Positions 24,462-58,275 of a stretch of 64,000 bases of DNA are shown one piece after another. The first letter of the stretch is position 1; every line of letters starts with the position of its first letter. The stretch is from positions 2,604,001-2,668,000 of the forward strand of contig OZ374559.1 in assembly GCA_977862235.1 (NCBI GenBank), written 5' to 3'. The notes beneath the pieces are model-generated. The model was not told where the DNA came from and searched no databases. It worked only from the letters and a program-made list of their open reading frames with translations. The stretch is from Dudresnaya verticillata (taxonomy: Eukaryota). Both the position numbers and the translations under genes were made by a program.

Positions 24462-24740
24462 TGTAGAGAGTTGTTAAAAACAGAACAAGTCGATAGCTTC
24501 AAGCTGTGAACTTGAAGCAGAACAAGCCGATAGCTTCAAGCCGTGAACAGTAGTGTTTAATATTGAATGTTGCGTGGTTCAAAGCCAGCCGTTCTGGATT
24601 GGCCGTGAACCGCTTTGTGCTCTCGAGATGAGCAGCAATACAGTAGTAGATAAAGGCTCTCTCTCCTCCGAGGGAAAGAGGAGAGAGGCAAGACTTTTTG
24701 AACAACAGAGTTGGAGTGCTAGGACGCGCCGGAGTTTACA
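24462..24740 (+). repeat. 5' LTR (279 bp)
   Basis: tgtagagag...ggagtttaca; internal 37-bp-period duplication cagaacaag.cgatagcttcaagc.gtgaac. Confidence 0.95.
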
Positions 24741-28396: not shown

Positions 28397-30154
28397 CACC
28401 ACGGGGTAAAAGTAGGGCTATTTCTGTATTTTTGTACATTACTAATGTGTATATTCGTAGATTTGCGGCATTTCTCTAAATTTATGTATACCTTAACTAA
28501 ACAATTTGTACATTCTGCATATCTGAAATAGAGCTGCACCATCGCGTAATAGACATACTCTTCGAAAACTGAAGATATGTGTTATACAACGTGGTGTTGT
28601 CCGATACACATCTGCAAGTTTTCAACATTTGGGACTTGTGCAGAACTGACGCAGACCTGTGCAGGTCTATGTCAGTTCTGCACAAGTTGGGAAGGCAGTT
28701 CTGCTTTGACAAGATGCATTACTATATAATCTGCAACTGTAGAGATATATAAAGTACATAGTGGCAACATGTAAGTAACATGGCATTGGTTCCGGACTCA
28801 ATGGAGAGTCTGCTGCCGCAACCACGAGCGTGGGTGCGGCAGCAGACTCTCCTTCGAGCCCGGAACCGAGACGATGACGGCGCCGTCCCAAATGGGTGCG
28901 CGGTGGGGCGTCAGCAATCTCTTTTGGGGTGGTTGGGTGCTTGCCCCCGTTTCTCAACGTACAAAACGCACTCCTCCTCCTCCCCCTCATTTGGTAGCTG
29001 CTCAGCAAGGTACCTCTCTATCTCTACGCGCTGAACTCTCTCTCGCTCTGTCTGACCTGCGCGCGCGCTCGCTCTCTCCCCTCCATCTCGAGCCTGCGCA
29101 CCCGCTATAGACGCACGGAGCGCATCGCGCGCCCGCAGTTCTACCCAACGCCAGTCTCAAATGTTTCGCAGCCGCAGCCATCACCGCGGTGCCGCGGCAG
29201 TTCCCAACACCTCCTTAGCCCATGTGCACATGGCAACCCAGTCCCCTTCGGGGAGCACCTATTTTCACGAAAACACTCCACCTCCTGGTGGTATCTCTGT
29301 GCGCGAGGGTGAGATAAGTAAGCCTGTTGGAGAGGTTGCGCGAGTCGCAACGACGGCATCTTTGGTGCCAGTCCGAGACCGTGGACTACTCGGCCCGCAT
29401 CGAGTGATGATGCCTAGGCATCTTGCAGCTGCAAGATGATGCCCACGTTACTGTTACTGGCCAGTCGCCCGAGCGGAGCTCTCGAGTGCGTTGGACTATT
29501 GAACCCGCAGACATATTGTTGCAACAATACTGCGATTTATGATACCATATCCCGACCCACAAGCGCGTTTTGCCTTCCCTATCCAGGATACCAGTAAACC
29601 ATCGATTGCTCCAACCCGCCCACACCTTCCCAGCTGGGTGGCGGGTGAACGGGATGGCGGCAGGATGTGCGCGGTGGGGTGTACAGGTATGTCACCAGGA
29701 ACACTTGTCTCAAAACAGACCACTGTCAATAAAGTTCGACATGGTCTGCCAAGATCAAACGAAACATTGAAGACATGGAGACGGGCGGGCAGTGAGCACC
29801 ACCCGCGAGGCGCAAAGTTCGTCGCCAAAAGATGGTTTGGGGGAGGGAGGTGTTCTGTTATGGGAGAGTTGTTTACCCGCTGCAGAACGGCTGGTCGCAG
29901 CCACGAACAGCTTCATTGCACTGAGTGGTTATCAGCGCTACCAACGCACATTGTGAATGCTGTCACCGTCTCTCCGTCTAGGCATCGTTTGACCAGTACA
30001 AGAGCTCGAGATCTTGATTATTGTACAAATATAAACCTAGAGTTGAATAGAATGAGTGCAGTACGTACTTTTGAACATAATTCAACAGCACCTGTACAAG
30101 ATTCGAGGCTACATGACGACTGGAACAAAACTACACTTATGCACTGAGCATCTT

Positions 30155-33100
30155 TCATGCTGCGTGGCGCCTTCTGTAACCAGATGAAGTAACGTTTTCG
30201 TCCCAAACGACCCAGTTCGCGTTTGTCGGAGTCTGAGCACCACCAGTTGCCCGGCCGGAGAACCATGGGTATTTGAAAACGCATCCACCATCCCTGTAGA
30301 ACTGAAGTAAACCGTGTGTGTTGGATTCGAAGCGATCATTGCCTCTCTTCAAAAACACGGAATCCTGCCCATGTACACTCATCCCTTGGCTCAGAGCATA
30401 TGTTTTCGGAAGCCCTTTCCCTGCAGCCACTTTTTTTCCTCACTAGAAGGATAAGCGATGGCTAAATCTCCGCGGACGAACAAAAGGCTGTAGGGAGGTA
30501 CCAGAACCAGTCGCGAGGGTAGGGACTTTTGTAGTGCAGCTCGTGAGGTTGCACTCTTGATGTTCCCATAGATGTGCGAATGTGGCCAAATTCTCAGCGC
30601 AAAGGGCTGATATGCAGTGAAGAAGACACTAAGATTAAGCAACTCTGGAGGAACTGCATACTTCTTCAAAGGTTCAGTGGTCCACTGGTAGTCGAGGTGT
30701 TCACTTGGCCTGACATCTGAGGTTTCTTGATGAGAACTATGGGCGCTACTCCACCCTGGTTCCGGTTGCATGAACCTTGTATGCGGGCCCGTTTCCTTGA
30801 AAGAATCTCCTGTTTTCACCAGACGGGACCCTTGTAAAGGCATATACAGGGGGCGTTCCGCCGTCTGCACATCCATGTTTTCGAGGTATCGAGCGATGAA
30901 GCAGTCTAAACGACATTTCTCTGCGAACGCCATCGCGGAAGATGCACCCTCATCGGGAGCCGAGTTTTATGCTTCCTGTTGCATGTGCAATGATGAAAAC
31001 TCGAAAGTGCAACTTTGCAGGTACGTTTTGCCGGATCCTGTATGCCCTCCCTCTGATGTTGCATGAACTTTGTCTGTCAATAGATTACCGACAGCATTCC
31101 ATGCCCTGCTTCTGCCTCTTGTGCACTGATGCAGGTCGAACCTGCTTGTCGCGTACTCGAAAACGGTACTTATTCTAGACTTCAGCTTATTCCTAAATCC
31201 CCTGCCCAGTACCCCCGCATCGAGTGCGAAACCTGTGGACTCGAGTCTCCCGGACATGATCAGAAAATGTGTCTGGGCAGCAATACCCAGGTTGCCTAGC
31301 ACTTCTGGTCTTTCAACCGTATCTGCTGTTACGCCATTAACTTCGCAATCAGCCCGTCTCGTTTCTAGTATGTTCAGGTCTGTCTCGACAACATCACCCC
31401 AATTCATGAACTTGTAGAACCGCGACTCCTTCCGCACTGCAACTGGAAGGGAATCGACAGTGCGCGACCTCAGGTCATCGCGTGATGCCCAGTATCGTTC
31501 TGGTTCCATCATAATGCCATTCTTCGCTGCCCATTGACTTTGCATGTCATGATATTCCTGAAACATTTTAGTCTGCTCAGAAGGGCTTTGTCGCAATTCA
31601 ACCAGGACAGAACCAGCACTGACGTCTTCTAAGTTATCCAAGTCGTTGTGTTCACTTCCAGAGTCTTCTTCAATATCATCCCGTTCTTCCCTTGGCGCTA
31701 TCCGACGGCGTTTTGTCACTGCCAAAGGTGATTGGGGAGGGGATGGTGCATCATCGTCATACATGACAGAGTCAGTGAGCTTATAAGCTAATGAATTCAT
31801 TACGAGATGAGGGTCTGGGGAAGCACTTTAGCGTTTGCGATATTCGCCCTCCCCGCGCGAAGAATTGTTCAACTTGTGCGAATTACAATCTCGTGGAGCA
31901 ATACCAGGTTTGCTAGACCGGAGCTTTAGCCTGTCTGCTGCCTGTGAGGGGCCCCTCGGAGCTTCCACCTCTCCAGCTTTGATACCGCAGCGATGCGTGG
32001 CTGACCGGCCGCGATATCCACGCGACCGGTCCTGAACAGCCTCTCTTTGTCGCACGGCAACGGTCTGGATGTCGGAAAGTCGCTGCTCACCCAAATCAAC
32101 ATCAAGAGTTCTATTTGTCCCACTTCTTGGATGCGTTCTCAGCGGCCGCTGAGTCATTTCCCTTGTTCGATTCCACCGAAAATCAATATCTGAAGAGGCA
32201 TGCGCTTTTGACACTCTCCCGTCTACGGGACTTCCGCTTCTTGAAGGCCTTATGTCGTCAGAAAACGTACTACAGTTGTCCAGTGCTGTCCTTTCAGGCA
32301 ACTCCAAAGCCCTCTTAGAAAGATCACCGGACGAAGGATCCTTCACGTTGCGAAAACGGAAACTGCGTACTCCATTTGACATGTTTGGATCTGACCTCCT
32401 CCCAGTGCCAGCTGTGGATCCAATCTCATGAGGTGAAGCCTTGGCGCCACCATCTTCTTCAAGAGCTAAACCTGCTTTCTCTACAACTTTGGTACCTCTT
32501 TCTCTACCAGGCGATTTTCCAGGGGTATCGGTTTCGCAGTCCACTGCATCCTCTTCTACGACAGTTGCATCTGCGGGTGTGGCATCTTCGTCTTCAAGGT
32601 TGCTACTTTCTCCATTGTCAATTATCAAATGCAGACGTTGCAGTTTCTGAAGCTCTTCTTTAAGGGGAAGTTCTTCCAATGAACCACGCTTATAAGCTTG
32701 CTTGGGCTTTGGTTCGCTTTCCGATAAAAGTTTGGCGGCGCACTTCATCAATACCTTTTTGTCGCGCTCAAGAAATTCTGTTTGATGGGGCACATTAAGA
32801 CGCCGGGCCTTGGCTTTGTCCTGCAGAAACGTCCTTTTCCGGCACAGATGCGCTATTACCCCACAAAGACCCGCAGGGACCGTTTCTTTCTCGATCTTTG
32901 CCTGCCCACAATACCATACCGAATTAGGTACTGGTTCATTCCGTGAAGCGTGCTTCAAGCACCTGGTAGCTGATGCAGTCAGCAAGCGAACATATCTGAC
33001 GAAAGAAGAAATATCATCGGTATCCCACACAGTCCGCCTTTTTATCACGCCCACCTCGTAGAAATACCTGGAGTTAGCTGATAGTGGGCAAGCAGTCATG

Positions 33101-33594
33101 TCAACTGGCGCGCAGGCCAAAAACACGTCGTGAGTCAGCATCTTGTAAACCAAGCCACGGCCATTCTTCACCTCACAGAGAAAGCAAAAAGTGTTGAAGG
33201 CAGGCATGGTCTGAGTACCTAGCATCGAATGCGCTAACTTGAGGTACATTACTCTTGTCGAGCGCTGCAGATCACTAAAGTTTAGCGACGTGCTGCCATC
33301 ATCGCTTTCGTATAACATGCACTCCTTTTCTTTCCGTATTCCCTCGAACAACTTGTCTTTCCCCTTCCTGATAGAATCGGAACGAGTGAACCCATTGTCC
33401 TCAAGATAGCTGCGGAGATGAGTTACAATAAGTTTCTTGGCAGGGCCGACGGCATGGCTCGGCATGCGATTCATATCTTCAATTGCACGGAAATCCTTGA
33501 ATGTGTACACTCCGAAGTCGGGTTCGTCCCCGAGCAACGCGGACCTAGGTCCGAGCGGCCTTGGGTTCAGGAGATAACGTGGAACGATTCGCAA
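30155..33594 (-). pseudogene. Large (about 1100 aa) transposon cargo gene with C-terminal degenerate 2OG-Fe(II) dioxygenase-like domain
   Basis: ORFs 31828-33594, 30967-31800 and 30391-30933 are in one frame, separated by single TAA stops; frameshift at the T8 run near 30430; C-terminus is paralogous to 37766-38583. Confidence 0.7.
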
Positions 33595-34139
33595 GGTAGC
33601 TGCCTAGGATTTCTTCAAATGTGTTCGCGAGCCCACGCATTGGCTGTTAAACAAGCAGCAGTACAAGGCGAGGGCTGGTAGATGTGAAGAATAGCGATTC
33701 AGTGCTTGCCACAGCTCTGCCTAGCTCATTCGGTCCCTGTGTTTGTACCACAGTGTGGTCATGTGCGGGTAGAGAGAGCTGAAGAAAGTTCCAGCTCACT
33801 GATGCCTCCCGGAAGGTAGCAGCGGTCGCTCACATAGTGCTCTGATTTTGTCGAAATCTAGAGCGCTTCCCGAGCTAACCTGCGGTGTTCCTTTTATGGT
33901 AGATATTTTAACAATAAAATAGGATGTGAAACGTCCATGACGAGCTAGCTGGCAGCTGCGAGGAAGTACCACCCGAAGAGAGAGATGTATCCTGAAAGGC
34001 AGCTGGTAATTGGCTAAGTGTCGTATTGTTATCGGTCCTGACAGTTGTGGTAATGGTACCCCAAATACTTTACAGGACGCCAGTGGAAGAGCATATGATA
34101 GATTCGGCGGTGTAGTTTCGCAGCTCTTGCAGTGTCCAC

Positions 34140-35110
34140 AGCGAGAAACTTGGACGCGCTGATCACCACCCGCCGGGCCGTTTGTTTGCCGACGATTGCT
34201 TGCTACACGTCGAGTGACCCCACGCTCTACGACAGGCGCTTCGCATTTGCGACGATCGTCACTCGAGTGGGCCAAGGACTCGGGTATGACCTGGTCTACC
34301 ACCAAGTGCGCTATTATCCTTCCGACTCGACACCGAGGTCGTCCCAACTCGACCAAGTTCCAACTTGCGGGCCAGACCCTCTCCAACCCTGCGACGGCCT
34401 GCTATCTTGGCATACACATTTCCCCTGTTGGCCCCGGTGACCGTGCTGTCCTGCAACTGATAGCGTCTGCCAAGAATGTTCTTCGAGCACTGTCAAGCAT
34501 GGCATTTGTGTCTGCCAAGATGCCAGCAACGGCACTGTCACGCGGGCCATCGACAACCTCGACACCGAGTTCTTGCGCTTGTTCATATCGCAACGCACGC
34601 CCCGCATGCCCAGCTCGCGTCTCAAGAAGCTTCGAGCTCTGTTCCGCATCATCCGGCCGCTTCTGCGCCAGCGTATTCTACAAAGCAAGTTCGCGTCTTC
34701 CCTCCGCCGCACTGCGCGCTCCACGCACCTCCCGGAATCATGGCACGCTCGGCAAACTTTACTCGCTCTCCCGAAGCTCCGAAACCCGATGCTGGGCAAC
34801 GCGTTGGATCGCGCGCGATCCAGAACCCGACGAGCCCATCCACCCTGCATGCTGACTGCGTTGCCCAATGGCGCTCTGCATTTACCGGTCCGCGCAAAGC
34901 CGCAGTCCCCACCACACCACGCTTTGCCCCGGCGCTGCTACTCCCTGACCACCGTGACCGCCTGCTTGCTATCAGATGGCACTTATGCACCTTCGCAATC
35001 ACACCCCGTTGCCCCTACTCTCCTACGACGCTACGCGCCCATATGCCCTCGAGCTCACGAAGCTCTCGCACGACGCCCTCCAGCACTCGGACATCCGCTC
35101 AGTCTCATTA
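34140..35110 (+). mobile_element. Degraded LINE fragment nested in the giant transposon
   Basis: Near-identical to 6421-6975 over the shared part; RT tail motifs KCAIILPTRHRGR and YLGIHIS. Confidence 0.85.
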
Positions 35111-35869
35111 TCAAATAAATGAGCAGTTGCACTTCCAGCCCTCCAAAAGTGGAGACGTTGAGCAGCCTTAGCCGCGACTCGGCGACTGCGCTGGTGAGCA
35201 TCTCTTCTGCTTCCGGATGCCCCCACGGCAGCCAAGAGAGCCACACGGGGCCGGCCATTATGTACACGGTGAACAAGAAGGCGGACAAACTGTGCAACGG
35301 CTGCCTTGCGTCCCCGGCGGGATGCACGTCGCCACCGTGGGGTGGCCCCGTGAGAGCGCCGCTAGGGTCCACACCACCGCGGACATGGGCCGGAGCAGCA
35401 GGCCACACACGCGTGGTGGGCCGCGGCCCACCAAGCTGGCAGCTGGTGCGGAACGGCGGCAGCTGCTGCTGCTGCTGTTACTCCCCCTCAGAGGCCTGCA
35501 GCGCGACAAGCAGCGGCAGCACGAGGTGTAGGCCTGTGGTTGCCGTGCTTGTCGTTTGTACAAACGTTTGTTTGTTTGTTTGTTTTTCGTCTTACTTTTA
35601 TTTTGTGACGGTTATACACGGACGCGCGATGCAGCGCTCCATGAACTGTCAGCCCCGGCTGTAATGGCGTGAATCTATGAGCTGTATTTTCCGAGCTGCA
35701 TAATCTCCAAAAAATGGAAAACGAGGTTGTGTGTGAGAGCAAGCACGAAACCCCGCGCTTATGGGCGCCGGCGCTGTCCGAACAGCGGGCCACTCGTTCC
35801 TCCCATCAAGCACAATAGCAATCGGGGTTTTCAGCAACATCGACATGCAAGTGCGCACTTCTTCACTCT

Positions 35870-38583
35870 GTGCATTCCCGCCACAACGTGGTGGACGTTT
35901 CTCTGACCAGGCTCCCCCAGGAGCTCCGGGACCGTGGAAAGGCCCGCATCCTGCTCGCGATTCGCAACTTTCTCGCAAGCGTGTCAGTGATGGATGGGGT
36001 TGGGGAGGAGGAAATAGCCAGAAACGCTCGTCGCTTTCTGGACGAATTCAACCATGAGACTGGATTGCTCATCGGCTGCACGCTGGATGGAAACGTGCTT
36101 TCCTTTTCGTCTCTACCTTCAGACGAGGAAATTATGTGGTTCAATGTGGCCACTGTCTTCGCGAAGAAGGCGTATGTTGATGCCCTTTCCGTTTTCAGGG
36201 AACTATCAAGACTTCAGGGAGGGCCCCGTATTCCTATTTATGTGCTCGCGTGCAAAATGTTCTTGACGTTGCGTCCTATAGAAATGCAGAGTGTACTGAA
36301 AGTTCTATGGGGTCGCTCACAATGCATGCACGACATTGGAATGGAAGACGCGTTTATTTGGGATCCGGAGAGCTGCATGAGATTTGTATCTCACACAACC
36401 GCTCTGCTACATTTCGCAGACATGACTGCGGCGAGAATGGAGCTATCTAACTCTGTGCCTTCAGGTCTTACTGTGCCTCAAAAGTACAGCTTGAAAGTGC
36501 CCGCTCTGTCGAACTCGTCAACTTTGACAGCTGCAGTGATTACCATAATCGCTGTAATAACAGCTCAAGAGAGATATGATATCAGGACTGAGCAGAGCTA
36601 TTTGATGGAACATACCGCCGATATCGCTGCAGCTCTTGGAAAGGTTCTGCAAGAGAAAGTGAATGCTACCCTTAATCCACAGAACAAAGTAACGCTTGCT
36701 CTGTCTCTAGTTCTTACGGGCAGTGGATACCGTAGACCAGTCTTCACACGAGTTGCGGGAAGAAGTGAACGGAATGGCGATGCCAATGCCGCCGTGGCCG
36801 CCAGATACACCCATGTTTCCCAGCTCGATGCACTCCGTTCCGATAATGACGAAGGAAATGCCATAGGCATTCCTGCTCATCAAGTATCTGTATTGCATAC
36901 CAGCAGACCTGCAGGAGATCACCATGGAGGTTTCATTAATGAAGTTGTAGTGGATGAGGGCGATGGTAACGCGACTCCGACGGGAAATAATGCGAAGAGA
37001 CTTCGAATAGATAAGAAGATACCGGAATCTAAATCTTTAATCCTCTCCTCGATAAGTCGTGTGGATGGAAAAAGTCTTCAAATTGCGGCACTGGAGCCCG
37101 AGAGAAACCGAGCTGGGACCGCTGGTGAGAGCGCTACTCTTCGCGACCATAGTATCCACGCTGAGGCATCATACTGGGACAATGTGGGAACGTTCAGGCT
37201 GAAGAGGTACCCCACCAGGCGAGTCACAGCGAGCCGAGGCCGCGACGGTCCCAATGCGTTCCGTTCGTACCACGCGATGGAGGAGGAGGCAGCATCTCTA
37301 GACGAAATGGTTGCGCTGCCAGACGTCTTTATTGTGAATTCATCCATTCGACCTGCACTGAGAAACAGACGCTGTGCCGTGCTTGGAATTAGGGAGGAGT
37401 CCCCAACTTTGGACTTTCTGACGAAGGAAGACTTCATGCAAATCACAAAGAGCATAGAGATGTCTGCCGCGACTGCATTCAGATTGCAGTTTGATTCTTC
37501 AGCAAACGAGGCAGCATTGCGGCATCAGGCCGTTGGCCATCTGCAACAGATGGCTGATGCGCTCTATACCAAGGGCTACGCTGTGGACCGCAGTCGTTTA
37601 ACGAGAGGTGCAGATGTCGAACAAGCTGCACGAATTGACCGCATTATCAATTATATGGTCCCGCTGCAGGACATGAGGGAAGACACATTTTAGCACGTCA
37701 TCTGCACAGACCCCAATCGGAGCCTCGCTGAAATCAAGAAGGACTTTGCGAGAAAGCCCGATGAAATGGGTGCCTTAATGCGGTGGCAGACCACAACTAA
37801 GAACTTTTCGGACATGCTGTATGAAAAGGAGCACGACGCGCCCTGCGGTGATGCGAGAAGCGAAGGTGGGGTGTTTAGGGACAAAAGCATGATCGAGGCA
37901 TATCTGGCAAGGTACGTGGAGTTGCTCGGGCTTCAAGATACCACACAACGCCCATGTATATGCCTCTCCGTGGGTTGCAGCTCATATGTACAGGTCAAGA
38001 AAGCGCAAGGCAAACACCGCATTCAGACTATATGGTACCACACCCGGGGTGGCACCCATCTGGAATTGCGACGCCCGATGCCGGAGAGCCCCCGGCTCTG
38101 GTCAACCTCACGGTAATGTTCAGCGGAGAGCAGCCTTTTGCGATTCGGGTTTGGCCATATACCCACATTCGGCAGGCAACAAGAAACGCGGAGGAGAGGA
38201 AGAAGATATTGGAGACGACGCCGTCTTGTCTGGTAACGGTCCCTTCGTACAGCATATTGCTGTTACGAGGAGACATTATTCACGCTGGTTGCAGCGGAGT
38301 TGAGATGAAGGTCGCGTTTGGTACTGATGGTCTGCGTCCGTACCCGCTCACCCCATTGTCCGACCTGCAAGATAACCGAAAGGAGAAGCTCTTTTCTGTG
38401 CGAGTTGGGAGTCATCTATGCAATGTACGCGGTCATCTATCTTTCGTGCGTTCCGAAGGACTTCGGTACGACGCCATTTGGTCCGTCGCAGACATCGAAC
38501 TAGGGGAGGATAGCAAAAACCCCTGGCATCTCAATGACGCCAATTATGAAGTCGAGCACAGATCTGTACGTTTAATTCAATAA
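35870..38583 (+). pseudogene. Large (about 900 aa) cargo gene with C-terminal PhyH-like 2OG-Fe(II) dioxygenase domain
   Basis: ORF 35870-37693 continues in frame past one TAG into ORF 37766; 1-nt frameshift near 37950 joins ORF 37954-38583, which has QTPHSDY, IRVWPYTH, VPSYSILLLRGDIIHAG and NVRGH. Confidence 0.75.
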
Positions 38584-38609
38584 ACTAGCTACGCGTACAA
38601 GCGGGTAAA

Positions 38610-39790
38610 TTGGACAGACAAGAGATGTCCATTTGCATGCGCAACCAGGCTCTGCAGAGAATTGCAACACGCTTACGGTGCGACCATGCTTTCCATGGAA
38701 AGCATGGTCGCACCGTAAGCGTGTGCATTTCTTTCCCTGCCCCAGAGAAGGCTCCTTCTGAAAACGAAACGGGCTCTGTTCCAAGGCAGCATCATGAGTT
38801 GCAAGCCGCGCACGTTGGCAAGTGGGAAGGGCACGCGTACGTATTCGCCATAGCAGACGCGAATGAGCTTGATATACGACTGGAGCGCCAGTTTCGCGTG
38901 GAAAGCGAGACAAGCGAGAGAGATGATAGCAGTTTTGAATGGTCCTCGTGCATTGCGAACTCTTCTGTCGACATTCTGTCCAACGTGTCTGTCCCGGCGC
39001 CAAAGTATAAAGACGTATTAGTTTCTGGTCGTGTTGTCTGCGCGGGGGGTAGCTATGCATTGAAGAACGCGCGAAGCGAGAAAAATGAGCCGGTGTCCAG
39101 TCCCGCCAACCTTACGATAAGCGCCGGATTTCTCAGAACAATAACGGCAAACAAGGCGACGACGGAAGAGGTGGAGTTATGCATGGCTTCAGAAGCGGGA
39201 CGGGGTCGTATGCGACGAGACCGAATCGTATTGTGCACTTGTCCCGCTAGTCCATCTTGTGGAAAGGCCAAATTTCGGTATGTTGTCTTGCTATCAGAGC
39301 AGTACAGTGGGCAAGAAGATTGCAGTGCCATTCCATCAGTTGTGGACCCCAACGCTAATGCTCGTCAAGCAGAAGTCAGTGGTTGCTCCGTCCTTGAAGG
39401 AACTTAGTCCGGCAGAGGAGCTCTCTTTCATCCAGAATATCCGCCGCAGCCATACCGAGCAGCCAACACGAAGCTGAGCTTCTGGCGTGCTGACTCCATA
39501 TCTGAATCGGACGTCACATGGGTTGATTACGATCTTGGTGAGGGACCTGAACATGACTCGAAAAGCAGGGCACGAACCGTCAGGAAGAAGAAAGTATCAA
39601 AGCGTGTTGCTGCAGCTCAAGCATTTGACCAAAAGCGGATCGCAAGGTGTTCTTTGCTTTCCCGGGAGTATATGGTGCAGGGCAAGGAACCGGAAACATT
39701 TGCCTGGCAGGAGGTCCAGCCTGGCAATGAAGTACCATCTCTGTTTTCACCTCGAGTTGGCAAGTTTGTTGACGACTATGCGGGTGTATT
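38610..39790 (+). pseudogene. Hypothetical cargo gene with one in-frame TAG, truncated at the gatA fragment
   Basis: ORF 38610-39407 reads through TAG in frame into ORF 39654; no family recognised. Confidence 0.5.
38667..38724. repeat. Perfect 58-bp palindrome without a loop
   Basis: acacgcttacggtgcgaccatgctttcca|tggaaagcatggtcgcaccgtaagcgtgt. Confidence 0.95.
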
Positions 39791-40700
39791 GTACGGGTGC
39801 AGGAATAGTCATGATATCGTCAAGGTACATGGCGAGGGGATCCTTTCTCATTTCACCAAACTTGTACGCCGGAGAAGTTGACACAGGAGAGATGAGTACA
39901 TCAACGCCTTGCGCGAACGCATCTTTGAAGCGCCTTGCCATCAATGCGCGAGCTCTTTGTGCACGGCGATAATACGCGTCATAGTAGCCGCTTGAAAGAG
40001 CAAACGTCCCGCGCATAATACGTTTCTTAACCTCATAACCAAATCCATTCGCCCTCGATTTTGCGTAGAGCTCGCTTGACGTGCGCGCGTCCTGGTCTCT
40101 GACACCATATCGAACACCATCATAACGTGCTAGATTTGCAGACGCTTTCGAGAACGCAAGAACAAAGTAAGCTGCAGTTGAGACGGAAAGCGAAGGTATC
40201 GAGATTGACTTGACCGTAGCACCAAACTGTTGGAGAATGTCGACGCCCGCTCGGACGCTCTGCGCTACATCTGGATGAACGCCCTCTCCCATGGCTTCAT
40301 CAATGATACCCACAGTATAGCCAGAAAGATCTGGGGTATTCATTAGACCCTCTGCGTATTTTGGTACGTCTGCATCGACAGATGTGGCATCCATGGGATC
40401 CTTGCCTGCCATGATCTGTAGCAAGAGCGCGGCGTCCTGCGCAGAATTGCAAATCGGGCCTGCAGTGTCCAGCGAGGAGAAACGGCCCTGCTTGAAATGC
40501 AAGAAGCTGTACATGCCATCAAGTTCAAGGACAAACATGCAGAAGGCGGCTCGAAGTTTGCGCAGACGTGTTAAGGGAATCGACGCAGAAATGGAAGCCA
40601 TCCCGTCACGACTAGAACTCCTGGTCCTTGCTGCACAGCTGTGACGCTGAGACGCTAGCGTCTTCTGGTTCTTCACAGGAAAACAGGCATTTGGTCTCAT
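39747..40700 (-). pseudogene. gatA: Fragment of Glu-tRNA(Gln) amidotransferase subunit A, internally deleted and 3'-truncated
   Basis: SSLDTAGP, AGKDPMDATS, ASANLARYDGVRYG, GFGYEVKKRIMRGTFALSSGYYDAYY, DPLAMYLDDIMTIPA; the amidase GGSSGGS core and the C-terminal end are absent. Confidence 0.88.
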
Positions 40701-41499
40701 TCACGATTCCCCGCAGACCCCCGCATAAGCCCCTGCACCTCGTACCTCCCTCTTTGTCTCAACGTTTCTGCCCCTTACCACGTGACCGTCTTTGTACGCT
40801 TCGGGTCGGTAATTTATGCACATATCCAGCCCACCGCCCACAATCCCTGCAATACAGATGATGATGCTCACCGCTGAGCAGCCAATGTCGCAATTGCTGT
40901 AATACGAACTCGAGTTCGAGTTGGGATCCAAACAACTTCTCCTTCTCCAACGCTCAGCAACTTCGTGCTGCCAGATCCGTAAACGTCCACGACCTTCAAC
41001 TCCGCAGATGGATATAAACCTCGCAGTAAAGCGATCAGCCCTGTTCAAAATCCGAACTGTTCCGCCGTCGCCTCCCTAACGCAGCTTCCAGCCGGCCATA
41101 TGCTGCTGGTCCGCTTGCATCTTTCGACACTCCCGATCCCTCCTGCGAACCCAGCGTGCGCTCAACGATTTGGAACCCTCCGCCAGGGGCTCCATGCTCC
41201 ATGCTCTCTCTCGAGAGATCTCTCGCTCTCGCTCGCGCGCGCGCTCGCGCGTGAGGACGAGTAGTGATGGTAGTGGATCCACTCGAGGAAGGACGGGTTG
41301 GATGCTGCATGTTGGATGCGTGCGGCCTGGTGCAGCGGTGCGCGGCAGCGCTTGGACTTGGGACGGTGCGGTGCCTCAACTGATTGTCGGGCGTGCGCGC
41401 AGTTTCTCCTTTTTTTGCCTTTTTCTGCAATTGGAACGGCAGAAGCAAAATGCTCCAGGACCCTGCGCATTGGTGACGGACAACAATCGTGGCGAACTG

Positions 41500-41580
41500 C
41501 CGGAAGTGATGATTCTTGTTTATTGTTGTTTTAGGTGGTCCTGTGCAGGCACCAAAGGCCCATTTGCAGGCGCACCGTTG
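41500..41580 (-). mobile_element. LINE 3'-UTR-only remnant
   Basis: gtgatgattcttgtttattgttgttttaggtggtcctgtgcaggcaccaaaggcccatttgcaggcgcaccg matches the reverse complement of about 7080-7152. Confidence 0.75.
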
Positions 41581-41676
41581 AAAGCGTAGTTCGGCTTCGC
41601 TCCGGCTTCCATCCCACAAATGGACTGCTCATGAGCAGTCCATATGCGGGAGTACACTCCAGTGCAGGATCCTGTG

Positions 41677-41968
41677 AAGTTTGATTTATTGGTATTTTGT
41701 TTAGAGTGGTCCTGCGCGGGCGGCTATGGCCCATTTGCAGGCACACTTTCGGGCTGTGATCTATTCAGGCGATGTGGAGTGCTCCTGCGGGAGGGGGAGA
41801 GGGAATTCTTCTTGGCAGGCCGCTCGGATCAGGTGGATGGCTTCCGTTATTTCTTGGAGATCTTGAGGGGTGGGGTCGCGTAGTGCGAGCTTGTGTAGAG
41901 TGGCAGCGGGTTGGCGGAGGGCAGCGCGCTTGGAGGGGCATTTGGGGGGTATCGGGAACGTGCCGAGG
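41677..41968 (-). mobile_element. Short 5'-truncated LINE insertion with 6-bp TSD CCTGTG
   Basis: LGTFPIPPKCPSKRAALR motif plus 3' UTR motif; CCTGTG at 41671-41676 and 41969-41974; the uninterrupted context gtgcaggatcctgtgttgctgatg occurs at 42881. Confidence 0.8.
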
Positions 41969-43413
41969 CCTGTGCTGCTGATATCAGCAGCGCGTGATTT
42001 GCAGCTCATGCATGCATTCGCGGTTATCTCTGCAACGATTTCGAAACGGCCTTTTTCAACGGGCGACACACCGGGAAGGGTTTTGATTGGTCGCGTACAT
42101 AATGGTTTCCGAGCTATGGCCATTTCACACATTGCACCCGGCCTCCGTCCCACAGTCTCCGCTCCAGCGCACGGTCCTGTGCTGCTGATGCATGCATGAA
42201 TTGCAGCTCATACATGCTTGCAGAGCTGCAATTTACACACGTATGCATGAGCTGCAATTCACGCGGAAGTCTGTGTAACGATTTCGAAACTGCCCATGTG
42301 GAGTTTTGGGGCGTTGTAGCTTTAATGCCCCATGGTCTCTAGACGTATACTATCGTTGCGCTACCATTTTCCGAGATGGAACGTGCACCATTTTAGGAGT
42401 TAACTGTTGCGTTGTGAGCTCCCCTTCTTACCCCGGCCGCCGTCGTCGTTTACTTTCCAAGTCGTGTTATTCACGAAACGGACTTATACGTCCTACAGGC
42501 TGACGGCCCATGGGCCGGGGCGACTGCAGTCGCCCTGGCGTTGTCGGGGCCAATGTGCTCATGCGCCGCACCGATGCGGCTAATTACCGCTTTCTGCTGG
42601 GTTCGCAGTGTTCTACAACCCTGTTGACCCGTACGCCGCGTGAACCCTCTACAGCGCTCGCGCGTTAGGCGGAGCGCGATCCGACGCATCTCTGAGAGCA
42701 CTCGTTCTATTCTTTTACTGTCCGGTGTGCTGGATCGGCAGAACCGGACGCTTTCAACATTCGACACGCCTGGGAGGGTTTTGATTGGTGGCGTGAATTT
42801 TTTTTCTGAGCTCTGGCCCATTGCGCCCGGCTTCCACCGATGGAAGCCAGGATATACGCGATATCCCGCAGGGCCCACTAGTGCAGGATCCTGTGTTGCT
42901 GATGCCTGCATGAGCTGCAATTCACGCGGATGCCAGTGTAACGATTTCCAAATCGCCGTTTTCAACGACCGACACGCCTTGGAGTGGTTTGATTGGTCGC
43001 GAACAGAATATCTTTATGGGGTCTCGCCGAGGGCGTCAATTGCTATCTCTCATGCGGGATTGTGCGCCTCTGCTGTATACTGCTGCAGCATGCAGCGATA
43101 ATGATACGTGCACGATGTGCCGCAACGTATGTAGCGGCTCAGAACTGTGTCTGGCGACACGGCTCTTACTCGGCGATTTCAAACCAATGAGCGATACGCA
43201 TTGAATCCATAAAAATGAACCCCAATACGGATCCGAAGAGGGGGTAACCCAACCATTGAAGTGTGAAACAAATAGGTGAAATGCCAATCGAGGTGGCTAG
43301 CCGCCGCGCAGCTGAGTAAGTCCACCGGGCCTTTCTTCATCTCTAACTGACTCCGCAGTGTCGAGCGCTGTTATAACAACATCTAACGGAGTTCTTACGC
43401 TGTGGAGTGATCA

Positions 43414-46400
43414 ATGGCATGTGTAGGCACTAAGAGAGCTGCAGGCGACAGTGCTGCGGAAGGGAAACTTGTGACTCGGCGTAAGGCTGCGTTTGTATCC
43501 CTGGACACAATACTCGAGAGATGTGGGCTTCCTACTTCCACAAAATTATCAGTGGACTGTGCAACTAACATGCTGATGGAAGCGACGAAAGAGTTGTGCG
43601 GATTGAAGATTCCCGGTTCATTGCGAAACAGGTGCGCCACCATTGTACAATTGATTTTTCGTACGCCTGTCATCGCATACGCGCTTTCTGCTTCTCGCAA
43701 TGCTCCTATTTTTTCTGTTCGAGGCTGGATACTTTTTGCAGGGAGCGGTTGTGACCGGAAGCTGTACACCTTGGGATTCCTGAGGAGGTGGATCGCGCTG
43801 CCAGGTGATGATTTAACACTGGGACCGGCAAAAGCAGGATCGTACAAGGGATTCGTACGCCTGCTTGCTCAATTACAACCGCAAGCAAGAACATTCTCAT
43901 TGTCAATATTCTTTCATATTCTTGGAATATGCTCCATGCTGCAATTAGTTCAAGATGCCGTGCCACGCGTGGGAAACATTTCTGCGGAATCTGCACGGAA
44001 TGGAATGGTCCCCCTGAACATTGAGACAGTTCTGTTTACTCTGGTCACTCGAAACGATTTCAGTCTTTCAAACATCCACTCAGCGTTCGGCGCAGATACC
44101 ACAGAGGCCATTCGAGCTTCGTTCCAGAAGTGCAGCTCACTTCTGGCAACCGTCGAAAAACTTCTCGAACGTATCCTGGGTTTTGCTGTGGAGAGGAAAA
44201 AGACCATTGCTCGCACATCTAGTTCGGGGAAACGATCCCTGCTAGGTACAATATGGAGAGTTACTCAGGATGAGCTGTGTGACTCAATCTGTAACCGCGA
44301 AGGAGCAAAAGAAGTATACTTTATGTTCTCGAGTGTCCTCCGTGATATATTAGCAGCATCGGGTGTTCAAAGCTTTCACACACGGATCTGCGAACGATTT
44401 ATGCTCTGCTTCTTGGAGGGCCTGGAGCCGTACTTGCACTCCAACACTTCCATTTACCTGCAACCACGTCCATACTTCCAAATTTGTACACCTAGCATTA
44501 TAGTGGATACACATTGCCAAGGAACACCCTGCACCCCTTACCCGGCAGCTTATGTATCATGCCCAGGGAAGTCAAATTTGATGAATGGAAGATCAGGGAC
44601 ACCTCTACTGGTTGATGCGAATCATGAAGAGTCGGGAAACGATATTCCCTGTTTTAGTTCTACAAATGAAAGAGTAAGAACCGATGTCGATATGACCGAC
44701 ATTGCCAGGTTAGTTGGTGAGCTTGAAGCTACTCCTGGAGCCATCCCCTTGAATTTGGAAACAGATCCACTAATGATACTCAGTCGTGTATCCATTCGGA
44801 CGACAAAAGTGTCAGAGCACCGCAACAGACAGAGCAGTTATTGCCACACCCCGGCACAAGGCGAAGATCATTTGCAGGAAAGCAACGCTCTCGAGATTTC
44901 ACCCTCACTCGCAAAGCCTGATTTTTCTCAAAGGCGACGTATATGTATGGAGGAATCGATTGAACACTGGATCCGTTTATTGCGAGATGTACCAGAGCTG
45001 AAAAGGGATGGGACATTGTTAGAATATGGGATTGTGCCAGTGGATATCTCGGATGTATTCCGTGTTTTGGATATTGAACGATACGAGGAGAAGGAACTGG
45101 CTTTTTGCAATATGTGGCGAGGTGTACTATCCACTTCATGTTACATGTGTTGGACGCTGAAAATATAGACCTGCAGGTCTTGAGAGATTTTCCCTCGCGG
45201 TCTCAGCAACCCTTCACTGCTACACGTCTTGCTTCCTCTGGAAACCACGCTCGACGTACAGTTACAATACGCTCGAGCAGAACTGCAGATGTTCGAAGTC
45301 GTGATGTTCTGGAGCTGAAGTTCAAGAACAACAGGGTGAGATGTGTGGCAGGCGGGGTTGTTGAAAATGAAGATGGCGAAAGGTCAACACCGGGTTCGAT
45401 AGAAGTTTTCTTCTCTTGTGCGGAAAACTTGTCAAGAATCGAATGTATTAATGACAACAGTACTATGACCGCATCTCACGTTATGAATCTTGACATCGAG
45501 TTTTCGGCATTTACCGCCTTTGGAAATATAGGTTGTGTACCTCTTAACTTGCGGAAGATGATTCTGAATCACGACAATAGCACATTTGAAGGAAGCTTTG
45601 AAATTTCAACAGTATGTGATAGAATACCATCGGGCTCGCGGGATGCCTTGAAAGGTGTGCGAGAAGAGCGACATTTAAGTTTCGAAGAAGAGAATTTAAT
45701 TGCAACCGTCTGCTATAAGCTTAAGCTGTGGATGACTTTTCTGCCCAACTTCGAGGCATTCGACAAATTTCTACTAGTACAGACTAACCCCACCATCGGA
45801 ATATATGCATTTTTCGCCGCAATGATAAGATGCATTTGCTATGGGTTCCCTCCTAAGAGTCGTCATAATAGAGAGGGGATGACAATAAGATCTCAAATGC
45901 TGTCTTGGACAAGGGAGAACACCCGCAAATGTGTTCGGGGGCAAAATGGAGGTTTTGGTTGCCGTGGCGGAAGGACGATGCTGAGAGCGTGTATGAGGAT
46001 ACCCATTATCGCGAGCAAGAGGGACGAGGTAGAAAGCCTCGTCCGTGAGCTCGAAGACATAGAAATTATAGGAGATGGCGAAGAATTGATGGGTATTTCT
46101 TGGTACAGCATACCAGGAACGTCTCACCTTGATCGTACCTGCTTGAAGTCTCGAACGCGTCTTGGACTTCTTCATAGCAGCCATTTCGTGATCTGTACTC
46201 CAGAAGCAATTCCCGAGCTTCTCCGAGATATTTCCTTGCTTCATGAGAGCTGTTGTTCTACTCACTTCGACGCATCATTCTTCCTCAACGGCACAGATAT
46301 TTCTGTACCATATTTCTTTGAGATGATACAGTGTGTCTCAAACCTGTCCGGGCCAATTATGATGTTTTCAGCAGAAAAAGACTTAAGATGCGAGAGAAGA

Positions 46401-46670
46401 AATACGTCATCAGTTCGTGATGCAATCCACCTCTCTATAATGGAGATGCTTTGGAGATCCAGCACTCACTTCCATCGGGTGGTATTGGATGAAAATGACG
46501 TTAAGGATCGTGACGAGGCTCAGAAGAGAGATGATTTCTCATTTCATGATAGTGCTCCCCATGGAGCAAACTCATTGGTTCACCGCGGAATTCCTCGCGT
46601 AATGGACAATCGAAGGGTGAGTAGAAATCTCCTACCTGAAATAGATTTGTTCCGGAGAGCTGCAATATGA
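43414..46670 (+). pseudogene. Large hypothetical cargo gene (two overlapping ORFs, probable frameshift near 45105) with C-terminal SF2/SNF2-like motif remnants
   Basis: 584-aa and 521-aa ORFs overlap at a T run; HFVICTPEAI and FHRVVLDE motifs. Confidence 0.55.
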
Positions 46671-46904
46671 GAGATGCAAGACCACAAGTTTGTCTATGCA
46701 TCGACAAGCTTGTGATCTTTCAGCTCCATGGTTCCTATTGGATCGAGGGCTTCATTTACCATCCGAAGCTGCAGTTTGGTTCTTTTCAAGAGTCCCTCGC
46801 TGGTTAATGTGTTGTGAATTAAATTCTCTAGTATAGGTAAAGTCTCCATTACCCTTCTATTTTCTTTTCAACGACTTCAGCTCGAGCTGCTTGCAATATA
46901 GGTA

Positions 46905-49900
46905 TCACCCTTGATGTGGTGGATAGCCCTTCTCTCGATCTAAAAGTCTAAATCTCGCTTCTAAAATGTGCTCCGGGTGCAGAACTGAACTACCATTTTC
47001 ATTTAGAACACAAGATGAAGTGCAGCTGTGTAAAACACCTACTCTTCGAGTACTACTGTCCAAGATTAGAACTGAAGGCCCTTTCTGGGGCTGACTCACA
47101 GAACATTCGTCTTGATTATGCACTACACGTATTGAGGCCTGCTCCAGTGCTTTTTCTTGTTCATTGTCCTGTTTACACGGAAGCACAAGTACACCTGCTC
47201 CATTGCCGCTGAATTGATCTCGATACAACGATTGTTGTCCTCCCTGTCCCCTATGTTCGAAGACCTGCACAACGTACCAATACGAGATCTCCTCAACGAT
47301 TTCAATACTGGAATTGTGGAGATACTGGCTGGAGAGTGTCGTTACAAACGGCCAGGATACTTTCCATCGGAATGCTTCATGCTTCAATTCCAGTGTCTGA
47401 ATGATGTCTCCGATGTAAATATCATATGAAGCAGGAAATCGATAAGAAGACAATCCAGTAAGTACAGCTCTGTCGGCCAAAGAAGAGATCGAATTCGGAT
47501 AAAGGGCTCGGAGGGTTTCTAGACCTTTTCGCCGAGCCGTAGAGAAGATGATGCGCCATTGTACGTCTGAAGCATCGTCAGATGTTCCCTTAATTCCCTC
47601 GAGGGAACTGCCCGTGGGGATTGACTGGTCAGTGGGGATTGACTGACCAGTCAATCCCCACGGGCAGTTCACAGTCTCTCCTGAACTTCTTTTCTGGGAG
47701 TGGGAAGTCGCTGTAATTCTCCAGCGATTGGTCTTCTCTTCACTTGCAGGGTGGATATTTATTACTGATCGTCCTTCTTCAGCCAAAAACTTGTCCACAG
47801 TTCCAATGGGGCCGAGTGCGTTCTTCAGAATTAGAATGTCATCCTTCTTCACTTTTCCCTTCCTATCAGCGTAGTATTCCGTTCCGAACAAGAGCCGAGT
47901 AAGGCTGAGAAAATACTTTTCTTCATCATCACGTTTATGAATTTTTTGCGACTCCCTCAACTCACTCACAAGGATGTTCAGCCTTCCTTGCCAATCGTTT
48001 ACTGCTGCAGCTGTCACGGCGTTTAGCTGCGGATTCGTGTTCTTAGATCTGGTAATTGTTCTTTTGAGGGCTTGGTGGGCTTTTTCACAAACCAGCTCGG
48101 AGACTCTGCGTATGTGACCGATATTTGGAAGGAGACTCATGCCGAGTTCCCTCAAACGATGTGCATTTGGGCGATCCAGTTGCGACCTGAGCTTTGATGC
48201 ATCTTCCCACCGTCTTTGAAGTATTGCACGGCGTTTAAACGCTTCTCTATCCCAGGAATGTTTTGTCCCGAGACGCCTTGACCATAATGCCCGCAGCTCA
48301 GCAACTTCCTCAGGAGGAAAGCACCAAATATCATTTGCATCTTCAAGATGCTTATTTATACTCCTCTGAGTTTTTTTCCAGGTTGTGCTGTCCGTAGTTT
48401 TCGTTGAACTGGGAAACCACTTTCGTTCCGTCGATTTCTGTTTTAGGCCAATACCACAGGTCAGAAACAATTCTTGAGAATGAACCGACAAGGGCGATTG
48501 CACCCAGGCATTTTTCGGACGGTATTGCGGCGCTTCTTTGCTGGGGATTGGTACCAGGGCTACAAGATGTAACTTCAACTGCCCTTAAAAACGCGTGTTC
48601 AGATACGAAAAGCAGCACATAAACCTCCGATAATGTCATCGAAAAGAGCTGCACTGCTCTCATATCAACGACTCGATTCTGTGTTGGGAGTCGAAGGTCT
48701 CGCATTGCTGAAACTGCAAACTTATCGAAAAGGCGCCGGTGGTGTGGTGTAGGCAAAACTTGCAACACCGCATTGATGCAGTCCTTCGCGTGTCCTGTTA
48801 GTAAAAGGTCCGGACCAATTAACAAACAAGCGTATGGGTCAAGGACACCAGGAACAACTGGCAAACCATGTAAAGGTTTTGGAATGGACGCTTGACATTC
48901 TTGGAAAGCTCTCGCCATGTCATGCAATACACAGCGGCCTTCCGCCCCGTTTTGCTTCATTCCCAGCGTCCTTAAAATCTCGTCATCAACCCCGCTTTTG
49001 CGTACCGAATCATGGCGGGACATATCCCTCCGCGACCCTTCCTGGCTCCCGTCCACATCCGAGTGCAGATGCCTGCAATTGACCGACATGTTCCACTTCC
49101 TAATTGTCACGTTCTGTATTTCTGCTCGTGTGAAGGTGCACATATGACAACAGGCATTTGCCGTATGTCCCAAAACATCAATGGCGGCATTTAGAGCAGG
49201 TGTGTCTCCAATACATCCTACAAGGTCTAGGAATATCTTGATGGCGTGTCCATCCGCATCATAGTCGTCGAAGCCTTCCGTCATTCCTTTCATGATATCT
49301 TCCTTTAACACCGAGAACACGACGTCAAAAACCATCCCAGGCGGTGTGAAACTTAAAACTCGCACAGATAAAGAACTGGATCGCTTCTGCGGCGGTAGGT
49401 TCAGACAAACCATATAGATACCATCCCCAGAACCGCTCCTCCCCTCCGGTATTCTGAACCCATCCCAAAAAAGGAGAAACTTGTAGACGAAATACTGTTT
49501 CCCATCTTCCAGTAATCCTCTACAAGGGACTTTTCGAGAACTTGACGATCCACGAAGCCCCTCTCTGACCTGCATAAGCCGTATCTCCGCAATCCCGTAC
49601 AGCTCTTGAGCTGTATCTCTGTTGTCATTTTCTGTATCAAAGATACTCACACATGCCTTCGTAAGGTCCTCGACAGTTTCAAATGGCATGTTCTGCACCG
49701 ATTTAACACAGAAGAATGACCTCGATGTTTCGGTAGGCTTTGTAAGAAACATGTGTACAATGATGATATGAAACACTTCATTACTGCAACGGCTGTTTCT
49801 TTTGCCACGAACTAATGTCAGGGTATCCCCCGTCCTACAGATGCCTCCTCCAATCTCATACTCGCCAATTGGTACATGCAGAATCTCAGCCATGGATTTC

Positions 49901-51306: not shown

Positions 51307-51709
51307 AAGCGTTTCTGTACTTCTTCTGTACTTGTCAGCTCGGGTTAGAGGGAGCTGCGTTTCATACTTCAGTATTCATGATTTGCGGAGATCAGGTACC
51401 AAGACATTCCAAAACCGCAAACCGGCATCTCCCTTGACCTGCGTAGTACACGATTTCATTCTAATTTGAATTGGTTATACCCTAGCGAGTATAACGGAGC
51501 TCCGTGGAGCTTTTGTAGAAATACGAATATATTTCCCTCCATAATTAGTGGTGGGCTGGCGATTCCGAACACGACGAATCCGTACTCGGATTCGCCAGCT
51601 GGCGAGACCTGTACATGTATCCTGGTCCATGACCACACGTTTCGAGGCATACACTCCCTTGCGCATGTGGGTGCCCCCGATCTGAACGTGCGCGAAAAGC
51701 ACATTACGA

Positions 51710-53662: not shown

Positions 53663-53724
53663 AAGAGCTATACTGTACCCTGTTTACTTTCATGTTCAAC
53701 ATCTTTAACATCGAGGTTTGGATC

Positions 53725-57654: not shown

Positions 57655-58275
57655 TCGGTGCGCATGACTCCGAAAGGTATGCGGACGTGGGTGTTCGGTG
57701 TCGGCGCGCGGGTGGACGAAAGGTGTGTTGGTAAAGGTCTCAGCTTTTCGGTGCGCATAACTCCGAAAGCTATGCGGACGTGGGTGTTCGGTGTCGGCGC
57801 GCGGGTGGACGGAAGGTGTGTTGGTAAAGGTCTCAGCTTGTCGGTGCGCATGAGGGAGAAGGGTGAACGGCCGTGGGTGTTCGGTGTTCGGCGCGCGGGT
57901 GGACGGAAGGTGTGTTGATACAGATCTCAGCTCGTCCGTGCGCGTGAGGGCGCAGGGTGTGCGGGCGTGGGCTTTCGATGTTCGGCGCGCGGGTGGGTGG
58001 AAGATGTTTTGATACAGATCTCAGCTTGTCGGTGCGCATGAGGGCGCAGGATGTGCGGGCGTGGGTGTTCGGTGCTCGGCGCGCGGGTGGGCGGAAGATG
58101 TTTTGGTACAGATCTCAGCTCGTCTGTGCGCATGAGGGCGCAGGATGTGCGGGCGTGGGTGTTCGGTGCTCTGCGCGCGGGGTGGAAGGAGGATGTGTTG
58201 GTACATATCTCAGCTTTTCAGTGCGCATGACGCCGCAAGGTGTGCGGGCGTGGGTGTTCGGTGTTCGGCGCTCGG
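57655..58275. repeat. Subterminal tandem array, about 6.6 copies of a 93-95-bp unit
   Basis: Units start at 57655, 57748, 57841, 57935, 58029, 58123 and 58218 (tcggtgcgcatg...gtgggtgttcggtg.tcggcgcgcgggtgg...tctcagct). Confidence 0.93.

What the first reader, a model, noticed from the sequence alone, without database searches (positions are those of the whole stretch)
30155..33594. Divergently oriented, apparently catalytically dead paralog of the dioxygenase gene
Seen: FAEKCRLDCFIARYLENMDVQTAERPLYMPLQGSRLVKTG aligns with FRDKSMIEAYLARYVELLGLQDTTQRPMYMPLRGLQLICTG, and QPFALRIWPHSHI with QPFAIRVWPYTHI. At aligned sites HSD becomes HTR, IIHAG becomes LAIAY and NVRGH becomes NTHGL. The two genes lie head-to-head. 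Inference: an old active/pseudo-enzyme pair kept within the element, perhaps a heterodimer or a reader plus enzyme.
Basis: partly seen in the sequence, partly recalled or inferred. Interest (0 to 1): 0.7.

Follow-up and report, generated by a model that had tools for sequence, protein, structure and literature searches.

The report
Dead oxygenase twin in giant transposon
A 30-kb jumping gene, likely from a red seaweed, carries two back-to-back copies of an iron-dependent oxygenase gene, one with its active site intact and one that lost it long ago yet was kept, likely as a non-catalytic helper for protecting the element from silencing.

Summary
Confirmed. Gene A (minus, 33474-30155) and gene B (plus, about 35850-38583) are full-length, head-to-head paralogs with a shared N-terminal domain and a C-terminal PhyH-type 2OG-Fe(II) oxygenase domain. 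B keeps H-x-D...H...R; A reads H-x-R...I...H. They lie in a 30.1-kb CACTA/Plavaka-type DNA transposon (28397-58503, 15-bp terminal repeats, AT target duplication) that split a young Gypsy element (LTRs 4 of 279 different). Both genes are broken in this copy (A: two stops, one frameshift; B: one stop, one frameshift), as recent decay predicts, but A's active-site loss needs 11 base changes in 5 codons, so it predates this copy and happened in a frame kept open. Of 37 homologs covering all four sites, 31 are intact; dead forms arose at least three times in A and B's clade, including two long open proteins. The family matches the red-algal Plavaka accessory gene PAG3, but this clade lacks the ParB core, and A sits where a related element has a DNA methylase. 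No sibling copy was available; heterodimer, substrate and expression are untested. New variant of a known kind.

The parts
28397..58503 (.). Giant CACTA/EnSpm-type (Plavaka-like) DNA transposon, 30.1 kb, inserted in the integrase gene of a Gypsy element
   Evidence: 15-bp exact terminal inverted repeats CACCACGGGGTAAAA at 28397 and 58489-58503, AT on both flanks; Gypsy RT/RNase H ends at 28409 and rve resumes at about 58500
30155..33474 (-). Gene A: N-terminal helical domain, low-complexity linker, PhyH-type domain without iron ligands 2 and 3 and without the 2OG-binding Arg; two premature TAA stops and one frameshift in this copy
30155..31341 (-). Dead oxygenase domain of A: H30783 kept, D->R 30777, H->I 30459, R->H 30316
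   Evidence: keeps 28 of 49 family-conserved columns, with losses concentrated at active-site columns
32800..33474 (-). N-terminal helical domain of A, shared with B and five full-length clade members; no ParB xDGxHR core
34143..35113 (+). Nested LINE fragment between A and B
   Evidence: tblastn with the window's other LINE frames, E 7e-44; 94% identical to 6428-6972
35846..38583 (+). Gene B: same architecture, intact H-x-D...H...R; start uncertain (first in-frame ATG 35990, homology begins earlier); TAG at 37691-93 and frameshift near 37955 in this copy
46905..51375 (-). DDE transposase of the element, one frameshift at an A7 run near 48370 and a His->Leu change in the conserved PDH motif
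   Evidence: 11 homologs, best E 2e-90; homologous to the transposase of locus L002, E 2e-56
51686..53662 (+). Accessory ORF, in the position of a similar-looking gene in L003 and L004
   Evidence: position and a motif seen by eye; tblastn only E 0.37, so homology is not established
53725..55902 (-). Accessory ORF convergent with the previous one, weakly homologous to genes in L003 and L004 (possibly PAG1; not testable)
   Evidence: E 5e-4 and 0.006
57655..58277 (.). Subterminal tandem array, 94-bp unit, 6.6 copies
24462..24740 (+). 5' LTR of the host Gypsy element; its partner is 59670-59948; 4 mismatches in 279 bp date the insertion site as young

Best explanation
Gene A is an old duplicate of the transposon's PhyH-type oxygenase gene B that lost three of four catalytic residues while its frame stayed open, and it likely serves as a co-expressed non-catalytic partner that helps B act on the element's own DNA or chromatin. 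Shown: paralogy over the whole length, residue loss, location inside one 30-kb Plavaka-type element, loss older than this copy. Inferred: selection kept A (frame nearly open after deep divergence; structural motifs kept). Inferred from the family: B is an iron/2-oxoglutarate oxygenase; its substrate is most likely a methylated base or chromatin mark, because in the related element L002 the same family sits head-to-head with an N6/N4 DNA methylase. Inferred and untested: both genes are transcribed from one bidirectional promoter; the shared N-terminal helical domain binds the element's DNA; A pairs with B in the way the dead TlxI pairs with TlxJ, supplying targeting or part of the substrate pocket. 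I put 0.85 on 'anciently dead and kept by selection' and about 0.4 on the partner mechanism in particular.
For: Active-site loss needs at least 11 base changes in 5 codons. The host LTRs differ at 4 of 279 sites (about 0.7% per side). At that divergence simulation gives 0.8 stops in A's 1103 codons (2 seen) and P about 3e-21 for 11 of 15 sites changing; at divergences where that becomes possible (30-60%) 27-42 stops are expected. Of 8 columns invariant among intact homologs, A loses the four active-site ones (Q, D, distal H, R) and keeps the other four. 31 of 37 homologs covering all four sites are H-D-H-R; in A and B's clade 4 of 9 are altered against 2 of 28 outside. P0020 (1244 aa) and P0025 (870 aa) are long open frames, sisters at 100/100, both without the first His: a second maintained dead lineage. 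Dead forms are not one clade (AU p 0.0004; at least 3 changes forced). The closest intact homolog P0017 folds confidently (pLDDT 79.5) and matches PhyH-type oxygenases, tied at the top by KanJ Z 15.1 (rmsd 3.8, 218 aligned), TlxIJ Z 14.5 (3.1, 203), AviO1 14.5, AndA 14.4. TlxI is a catalytically incompetent heterodimer partner of TlxJ (PMC12141560, passages). In L002 the head-to-head partner of the oxygenase is a PF01555 methylase (E 5e-14) and both partners share one N-terminal domain type, the same design as A and B.
Against: No sibling copy, host genome or reads were available, so the loss is seen in one copy only, and no close A ortholog was among the 44 hits. A has the longest branch in its group (1.5 to 2.0) and keeps only 28 of 49 conserved columns against 36-45 in intact complete homologs, which also fits a domain drifting under relaxed selection. 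The genomic context of P0020 and P0025 is unknown, so an active-plus-dead pair is not shown to recur. P0035 and P0036 are fragments and may simply be decayed. The best structural matches act on small molecules, not nucleic acids. DNA binding by the N-terminal domain rests on a weak profile match to the helical part of the ParB-type proteins (hhalign E 0.0009, probability 23.5%). The TlxIJ match is one of several tied folds and shows no function.
Confidence: 0.4

Rival explanations
1. A works on its own as a DNA- or mark-binding protein (reader or anti-silencing factor): the dead pocket binds a methylated or oxidised base or residue and shields it, without binding B.
For: The old, selective loss of metal and 2OG residues with the fold motifs kept; A takes the place of a separate effector gene (the methylase) in L002; dead forms arose several times.
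Against: No ligand known; A's pocket residues differ from those of the other dead forms, so no common new binding site is seen.
Confidence: 0.22
2. Only A's N-terminal domain matters; the oxygenase domain is a tolerated vestige kept in frame and eroding slowly.
For: Long branch; 28 of 49 conserved columns kept; a 21-residue insertion after the first His.
Against: The core stretch is still 38% identical to B while fourfold sites are largely randomised (17 of 43); the C-terminal extension still matches the clade profile.
Confidence: 0.2
3. A has a different chemistry or metal site, not a dead one.
For: The first His is kept and a new His stands at the Arg position.
Against: Two of three iron ligands and the 2OG Arg are gone; no A model good enough to show a new site (pLDDT 36).
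Confidence: 0.06
4. A is simply a pseudogene, and the changes are decay of this copy or of a long non-autonomous lineage.
For: A has two stops and a frameshift; Plavaka copies in red algae are mostly degenerate (bioRxiv 10.1101/2025.02.11.637652, section 8).
Against: B and the transposase are broken to a similar degree; decay deep enough to change 11 of 15 sites would leave dozens of stops.
Confidence: 0.12

Closest known systems
Red-algal giant Plavaka elements with accessory genes PAG1-3 (Bostrychia moritziana; bioRxiv 10.1101/2025.02.11.637652; section 8 and passages read)
   Same: Giant EnSpm/CACTA-type element with a PhyH-like 2OG oxygenase accessory gene (PAG3; their best HHpred hit 2OPW). 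Locus L002 shows that described cassette (transposase, PF01555 methylase, ParB-motif oxygenase, tandem palindromes) and is homologous to this element's transposase and oxygenase.
   Different: Here two oxygenase paralogs, one dead; no methylase or SET gene found; no ParB xDGxHR core; no tandem palindrome array between the genes; 30 kb with nested inserts against 17-19 kb.
TlxI/TlxJ and TlxA/TlxC heterodimeric non-heme iron oxygenases (PDB 7VBQ; PMC12141560, passages read)
   Same: PhyH-type fold (Z 14.5); an active enzyme and a paralog that lacks the 2OG-binding Arg, encoded together.
   Different: Fungal natural-product enzymes, no DNA-binding-type N-terminal domain, not in a transposon; binding is shown there and not here; A has also lost two iron ligands.
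TET/JBP-carrying fungal DNA transposons, including PlavakaB (Kojima, PMC12730594; first part and passages read)
   Same: CMCT-clade transposon carrying a 2OG dioxygenase proposed to counter silencing; CA..TG ends and 2-3 bp target duplication.
   Different: TET/JBP family there, PhyH-type here; ends CACCA here against CATCA for PlavakaB; the word 'inactive' does not occur in that paper.
METTL3-METTL14 and inactive DIRS1 methylase domains (PMC4738411, passages read)
   Same: Active-plus-inactive paralog pair in nucleic acid modification; inactive enzyme domain kept by a mobile element.
   Different: Methyltransferase fold, unrelated sequence; analogy only.

Membership tests
PhyH-type 2OG-Fe(II) dioxygenase (gene B) | Double-stranded beta-helix fold of the PhyH type | tested here: met
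   Atlas features 0.94, PhyH clusters; model of the closest intact homolog P0017 (38-40% identical to B's core) matches KanJ, TlxIJ, AndA, PHYHD1. B itself has no Pfam hit and was not folded.
PhyH-type 2OG-Fe(II) dioxygenase (gene B) | H-x-D...H iron triad and 2OG-binding Arg | tested here: met
   H38020, D38026, H38281, R38428
PhyH-type 2OG-Fe(II) dioxygenase (gene A) | H-x-D...H iron triad and 2OG-binding Arg | tested here: not met
   H, R, I, H at the four columns
PhyH-type 2OG-Fe(II) dioxygenase (gene A) | Fold retained | tested here: inconclusive
   Sequence homology is clear; the model of A from a 4-row alignment was unusable (pLDDT 36)
Plavaka accessory gene PAG3 | C-terminal PhyH-like oxygenase in a giant Plavaka-type element | tested here: met
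   link to the published PAG3 is through the matching cassette in L002, not through the published sequences, which I did not hold
Plavaka accessory gene PAG3 | N-terminal ParB-like domain | tested here: not met
   The xDGxHR-type core is found in 12 of 15 other-clade proteins examined; the profile built from them does not hit A or B; only a weak match of the following helical part
Plavaka accessory gene PAG3 | Adjacent tandem array of inverted repeats | tested here: not met
   No such array near A or B; present in L002. A LINE insert disturbs the region, and single hairpins occur.
Red-algal Plavaka (EnSpm/CACTA) element | CA..TG termini, short terminal repeats, 2-3 bp target duplication | tested here: met
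   CACCA..TGGTG, 15-bp repeats, AT duplication
Red-algal Plavaka (EnSpm/CACTA) element | Transposase with C(2)C and H(3-4)H motifs | tested here: met
   CHMC present; homologs have the His pair, this copy has Leu for the first His
Red-algal Plavaka (EnSpm/CACTA) element | Phylogenetic placement with reference Plavaka transposases | not testable with these tools
   No reference set held; no Pfam hit for this transposase or for P0004 and L002
Red-algal Plavaka (EnSpm/CACTA) element | PAG2 (N6-adenine methylase plus SET) in the element | tested here: not met
   No Pfam or NCBIfam hit in the long frames; L002's methylase has no tblastn hit in the window at E up to 1
TlxIJ-type active/inactive heterodimer | Physical heterodimer in which the dead subunit raises activity | not testable with these tools
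   Needs pull-down and assay

The most novel reading that the evidence does not exclude
A distinct ParB-less branch of transposon oxygenases has repeatedly produced conserved pseudoenzymes, and in this giant element a dead oxygenase has replaced the DNA methylase as the divergently transcribed partner: the element makes an enzyme-pseudoenzyme heterodimer that erases or masks host silencing marks on its own sequence.
Probability: 0.25. Interest if true: 0.78.

Novelty: new variant of a known kind. Interest (0 to 1): 0.52.

Why it matters
Plavaka elements make up a third of at least one red-algal genome, and their accessory genes are proposed, without test, to counter silencing. A dead paralog kept by selection says that the protein has a job beyond catalysis, and gives a natural active/dead pair for finding the substrate and the target DNA. 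It also shows that the cassette is modular: a shared N-terminal domain with swappable effectors (methylase, oxygenase, dead oxygenase). I found no report of inactive PAG3 paralogs in the searches run; the Bostrychia supplements, the Chondrus reference it cites and the 2014 TET/JBP paper could not be read, so prior mention is not excluded.

Tried and rejected
No host genome is held and no sequencing run was listed, so siblings, expression and whether the homopolymer frameshifts are assembly errors stay open. Word-index search with B's domain found nothing; the clade profile re-found only P0020 and P0025. Complex prediction of B's core with A's core gave no verdict (score 0.01; pieces incomplete, alignments not used). 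The model of A was unusable. Sequence searches of the PDB gave no meaningful hit. The Atlas gave no usable hit for A's N-terminal part. A six-frame Pfam scan of the element was not run to a result; stop-to-stop frames and tblastn were used instead. Introns as the cause of the stop at 30967 and of B's breaks were rejected because A and B align colinearly across them; the stop at 31828 lies in the unalignable linker, so two separate genes or an intron there cannot be excluded. The second one-clade test (A, P0020, P0025) did not finish. The trees include the catalytic columns, and the dead group was named after the first tree was seen. Six fragments were left out of the first tree; the second used 18 chosen rows; seven of 44 hits lacking one of the four columns were left out of the motif count.

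Full report
Setting. The window is eukaryotic and rich in mobile DNA. No call names the organism; a red alga is inferred because the element type and gene family match those described for red seaweeds. A Gypsy element (LTRs 24462-24740 and 59670-59948, 4 mismatches in 279 bp) is split inside its integrase: RT, RNase H and the zinc finger end at 28409 and the rve core resumes near 58500. The insert runs from 28397 to 58503, with exact 15-bp terminal inverted repeats starting CACCA and AT on both flanks. It encodes a DDE transposase on the minus strand (11 homologs) with one frameshift and a His-to-Leu change in a conserved motif, and has a 94-bp subterminal array.

The observation. Gene A (minus; first ATG 33474, end 30155) and gene B (plus; about 35850 to 38583) face away from each other. 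Their oxygenase cores align at E 2e-30; the region in front of the core and the N-terminal 200 residues also align (E 5e-7, 6e-6). B has H-x-D...H...R; A has H-x-R...I...H. A's last strand lies beyond a frameshift; a clade profile built without A picks that frame out of six (E 9e-5). Both genes are broken in this copy: A by two TAA stops and a frameshift, B by one TAG and a frameshift.

What the family is. B's core is PhyH-like by language-model features (0.94). A profile of A and B found 44 proteins among 1.84 billion representatives. The closest intact one, P0017, folds with pLDDT 79.5 and matches PhyH-type oxygenases: KanJ Z 15.1, TlxIJ 14.5, AviO1 14.5, AndA 14.4, tied within 1. The hits fall into a clade with A and B (12 rows, 99/97; 100/99) and the rest. 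Full-length members of the rest carry a ParB-type xDGxHR motif (12 of 15 examined), as described for PAG3. Full-length members of A and B's clade instead begin with a helical domain shared with A and B, weakly similar to the helices after the ParB core (hhalign E 0.0009, probability 23.5%). Loci L002 and L003, overlapping at 99.9%, show the published type of cassette: transposase, a PF01555 methylase head-to-head with a ParB-motif oxygenase, 60-bp tandem palindromes between them, then two convergent genes. The window has a homologous transposase (E 2e-56) and a weak homolog of the last gene, but no methylase; the head-to-head partner of its oxygenase is the dead paralog A.

Is the loss old and kept? 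The five changed codons need at least 11 base changes. The LTR pair bounds drift since insertion at about 0.7% per side. At that level 0.8 stops are expected in A's 1103 codons, in line with the 2 seen, and the chance of 11 of 15 sites changing is about 3e-21; at 30-60% divergence, where that could happen, 27-42 stops are expected. So the breaks are recent (or, for the homopolymer indels, assembly errors) and the catalytic loss is older and arose in a frame kept open. A and B are 29% identical over 327 residues with 17 of 43 fourfold sites identical. A loses the four invariant active-site columns and keeps the other four invariant ones, but overall keeps 28 of 49 conserved columns against 36-45 in 19 complete intact homologs, and has a long branch, so constraint is relaxed. 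Among 37 homologs covering all four sites, 31 are intact; 4 of 9 in the clade and 2 of 28 outside are altered. P0020 and P0025 are long open sisters without the first His; P0035 and P0036 are fragments and weaker evidence. The dead forms do not form one clade (AU p 0.0004, at least 3 changes; caveats under Tried and rejected).

How it most likely works. B is inferred to be an iron/2OG oxygenase aimed at a methylated base or chromatin mark on the element, following the proposal for PAG3 and its pairing with a methylase in L002; its closest solved folds act on small molecules, so this is not shown. A is inferred to be expressed with B from the shared interval and to act without catalysis. I favour a partner subunit (0.4), with the dead TlxI in TlxIJ as precedent in the same fold, over an independent reader (0.22), a vestigial domain on a working N-terminal domain (0.2), plain pseudogene (0.12) or new chemistry (0.06).

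Papers seen. bioRxiv 10.1101/2025.02.11.637652: section 8 whole and passages, supplements not seen. PMC12730594: first seventh and passages. PMC12141560, PMC4738411, PMC12477816: passages. The 2014 TET/JBP paper was not held. The assignment of the Arg as 2OG-binding and of H-x-D...H as iron ligands rests on established knowledge of the family, not on a call.

Verdict. It is a new variant of a known kind: a ParB-less PAG3-like pair in a giant Plavaka-type element with one member anciently inactivated. The mechanism is untested and the pair is seen in one broken copy. Interest 0.52.

Noticed in passing
window 39750-40490 (-): Fragment of a gatA amidotransferase gene (NCBIfam TIGR00132 E 1e-64, profile positions 195-418) inside the transposon, overlapping the end of the ORF after gene B: probably a captured host gene piece.
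   Followed up: partly
window 38589-39881 (+) and 43411-46670 (+): Two further long accessory frames of the element (one stop; one frameshift) with no family hit in Pfam or NCBIfam and no match in L001-L008.
   Followed up: partly
L002 4364-7276 (-): The methylase gene also carries the ParB-type motif at its N-terminus and shows no SET domain in Pfam: both head-to-head genes share one N-terminal domain type.
   Followed up: partly
L002 7474-7682: 60-bp tandem repeats, each holding a palindrome, between methylase and oxygenase, as described next to PAG3.
   Followed up: no
window 28634-28687, 28788-28867, 29419-29438, 35411-35436, 38667-38724, 41612-41651, 47605-47670, 55995-56014: Scattered near-perfect hairpins inside the element, two of them (29-bp arms) within reading frames.
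   Followed up: no
window 7877-10687 (-) and 21213-24083 (+): Inverted pair of long low-complexity genes, 90-96% identical, about 10 kb apart, no family hit.
   Followed up: no
window 16634-18535 (+), 723-1892 (+), 60224-64000 (+): A fasciclin-like plus Hint-domain gene, a gene of four peptidoglycan-binding repeats, and Roc-type GTPase pieces followed by a TIR-like motif seen by eye.
   Followed up: no
window 27058-27117: Exact 30-bp tandem duplication inside the Gypsy reverse transcriptase frame.
   Followed up: no
window 41000-43100: Nested repeats inside the element, including a second LINE end (about 41790-41970) and short repeats shared with 7080, 14566, 19098, 60968.
   Followed up: partly
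proteins P0038, P0051: Altered catalytic residues also occur in the ParB-type clade (P0038, 1021 aa open frame, H-N-K-Y; P0051 H-A-H-R).
   Followed up: no
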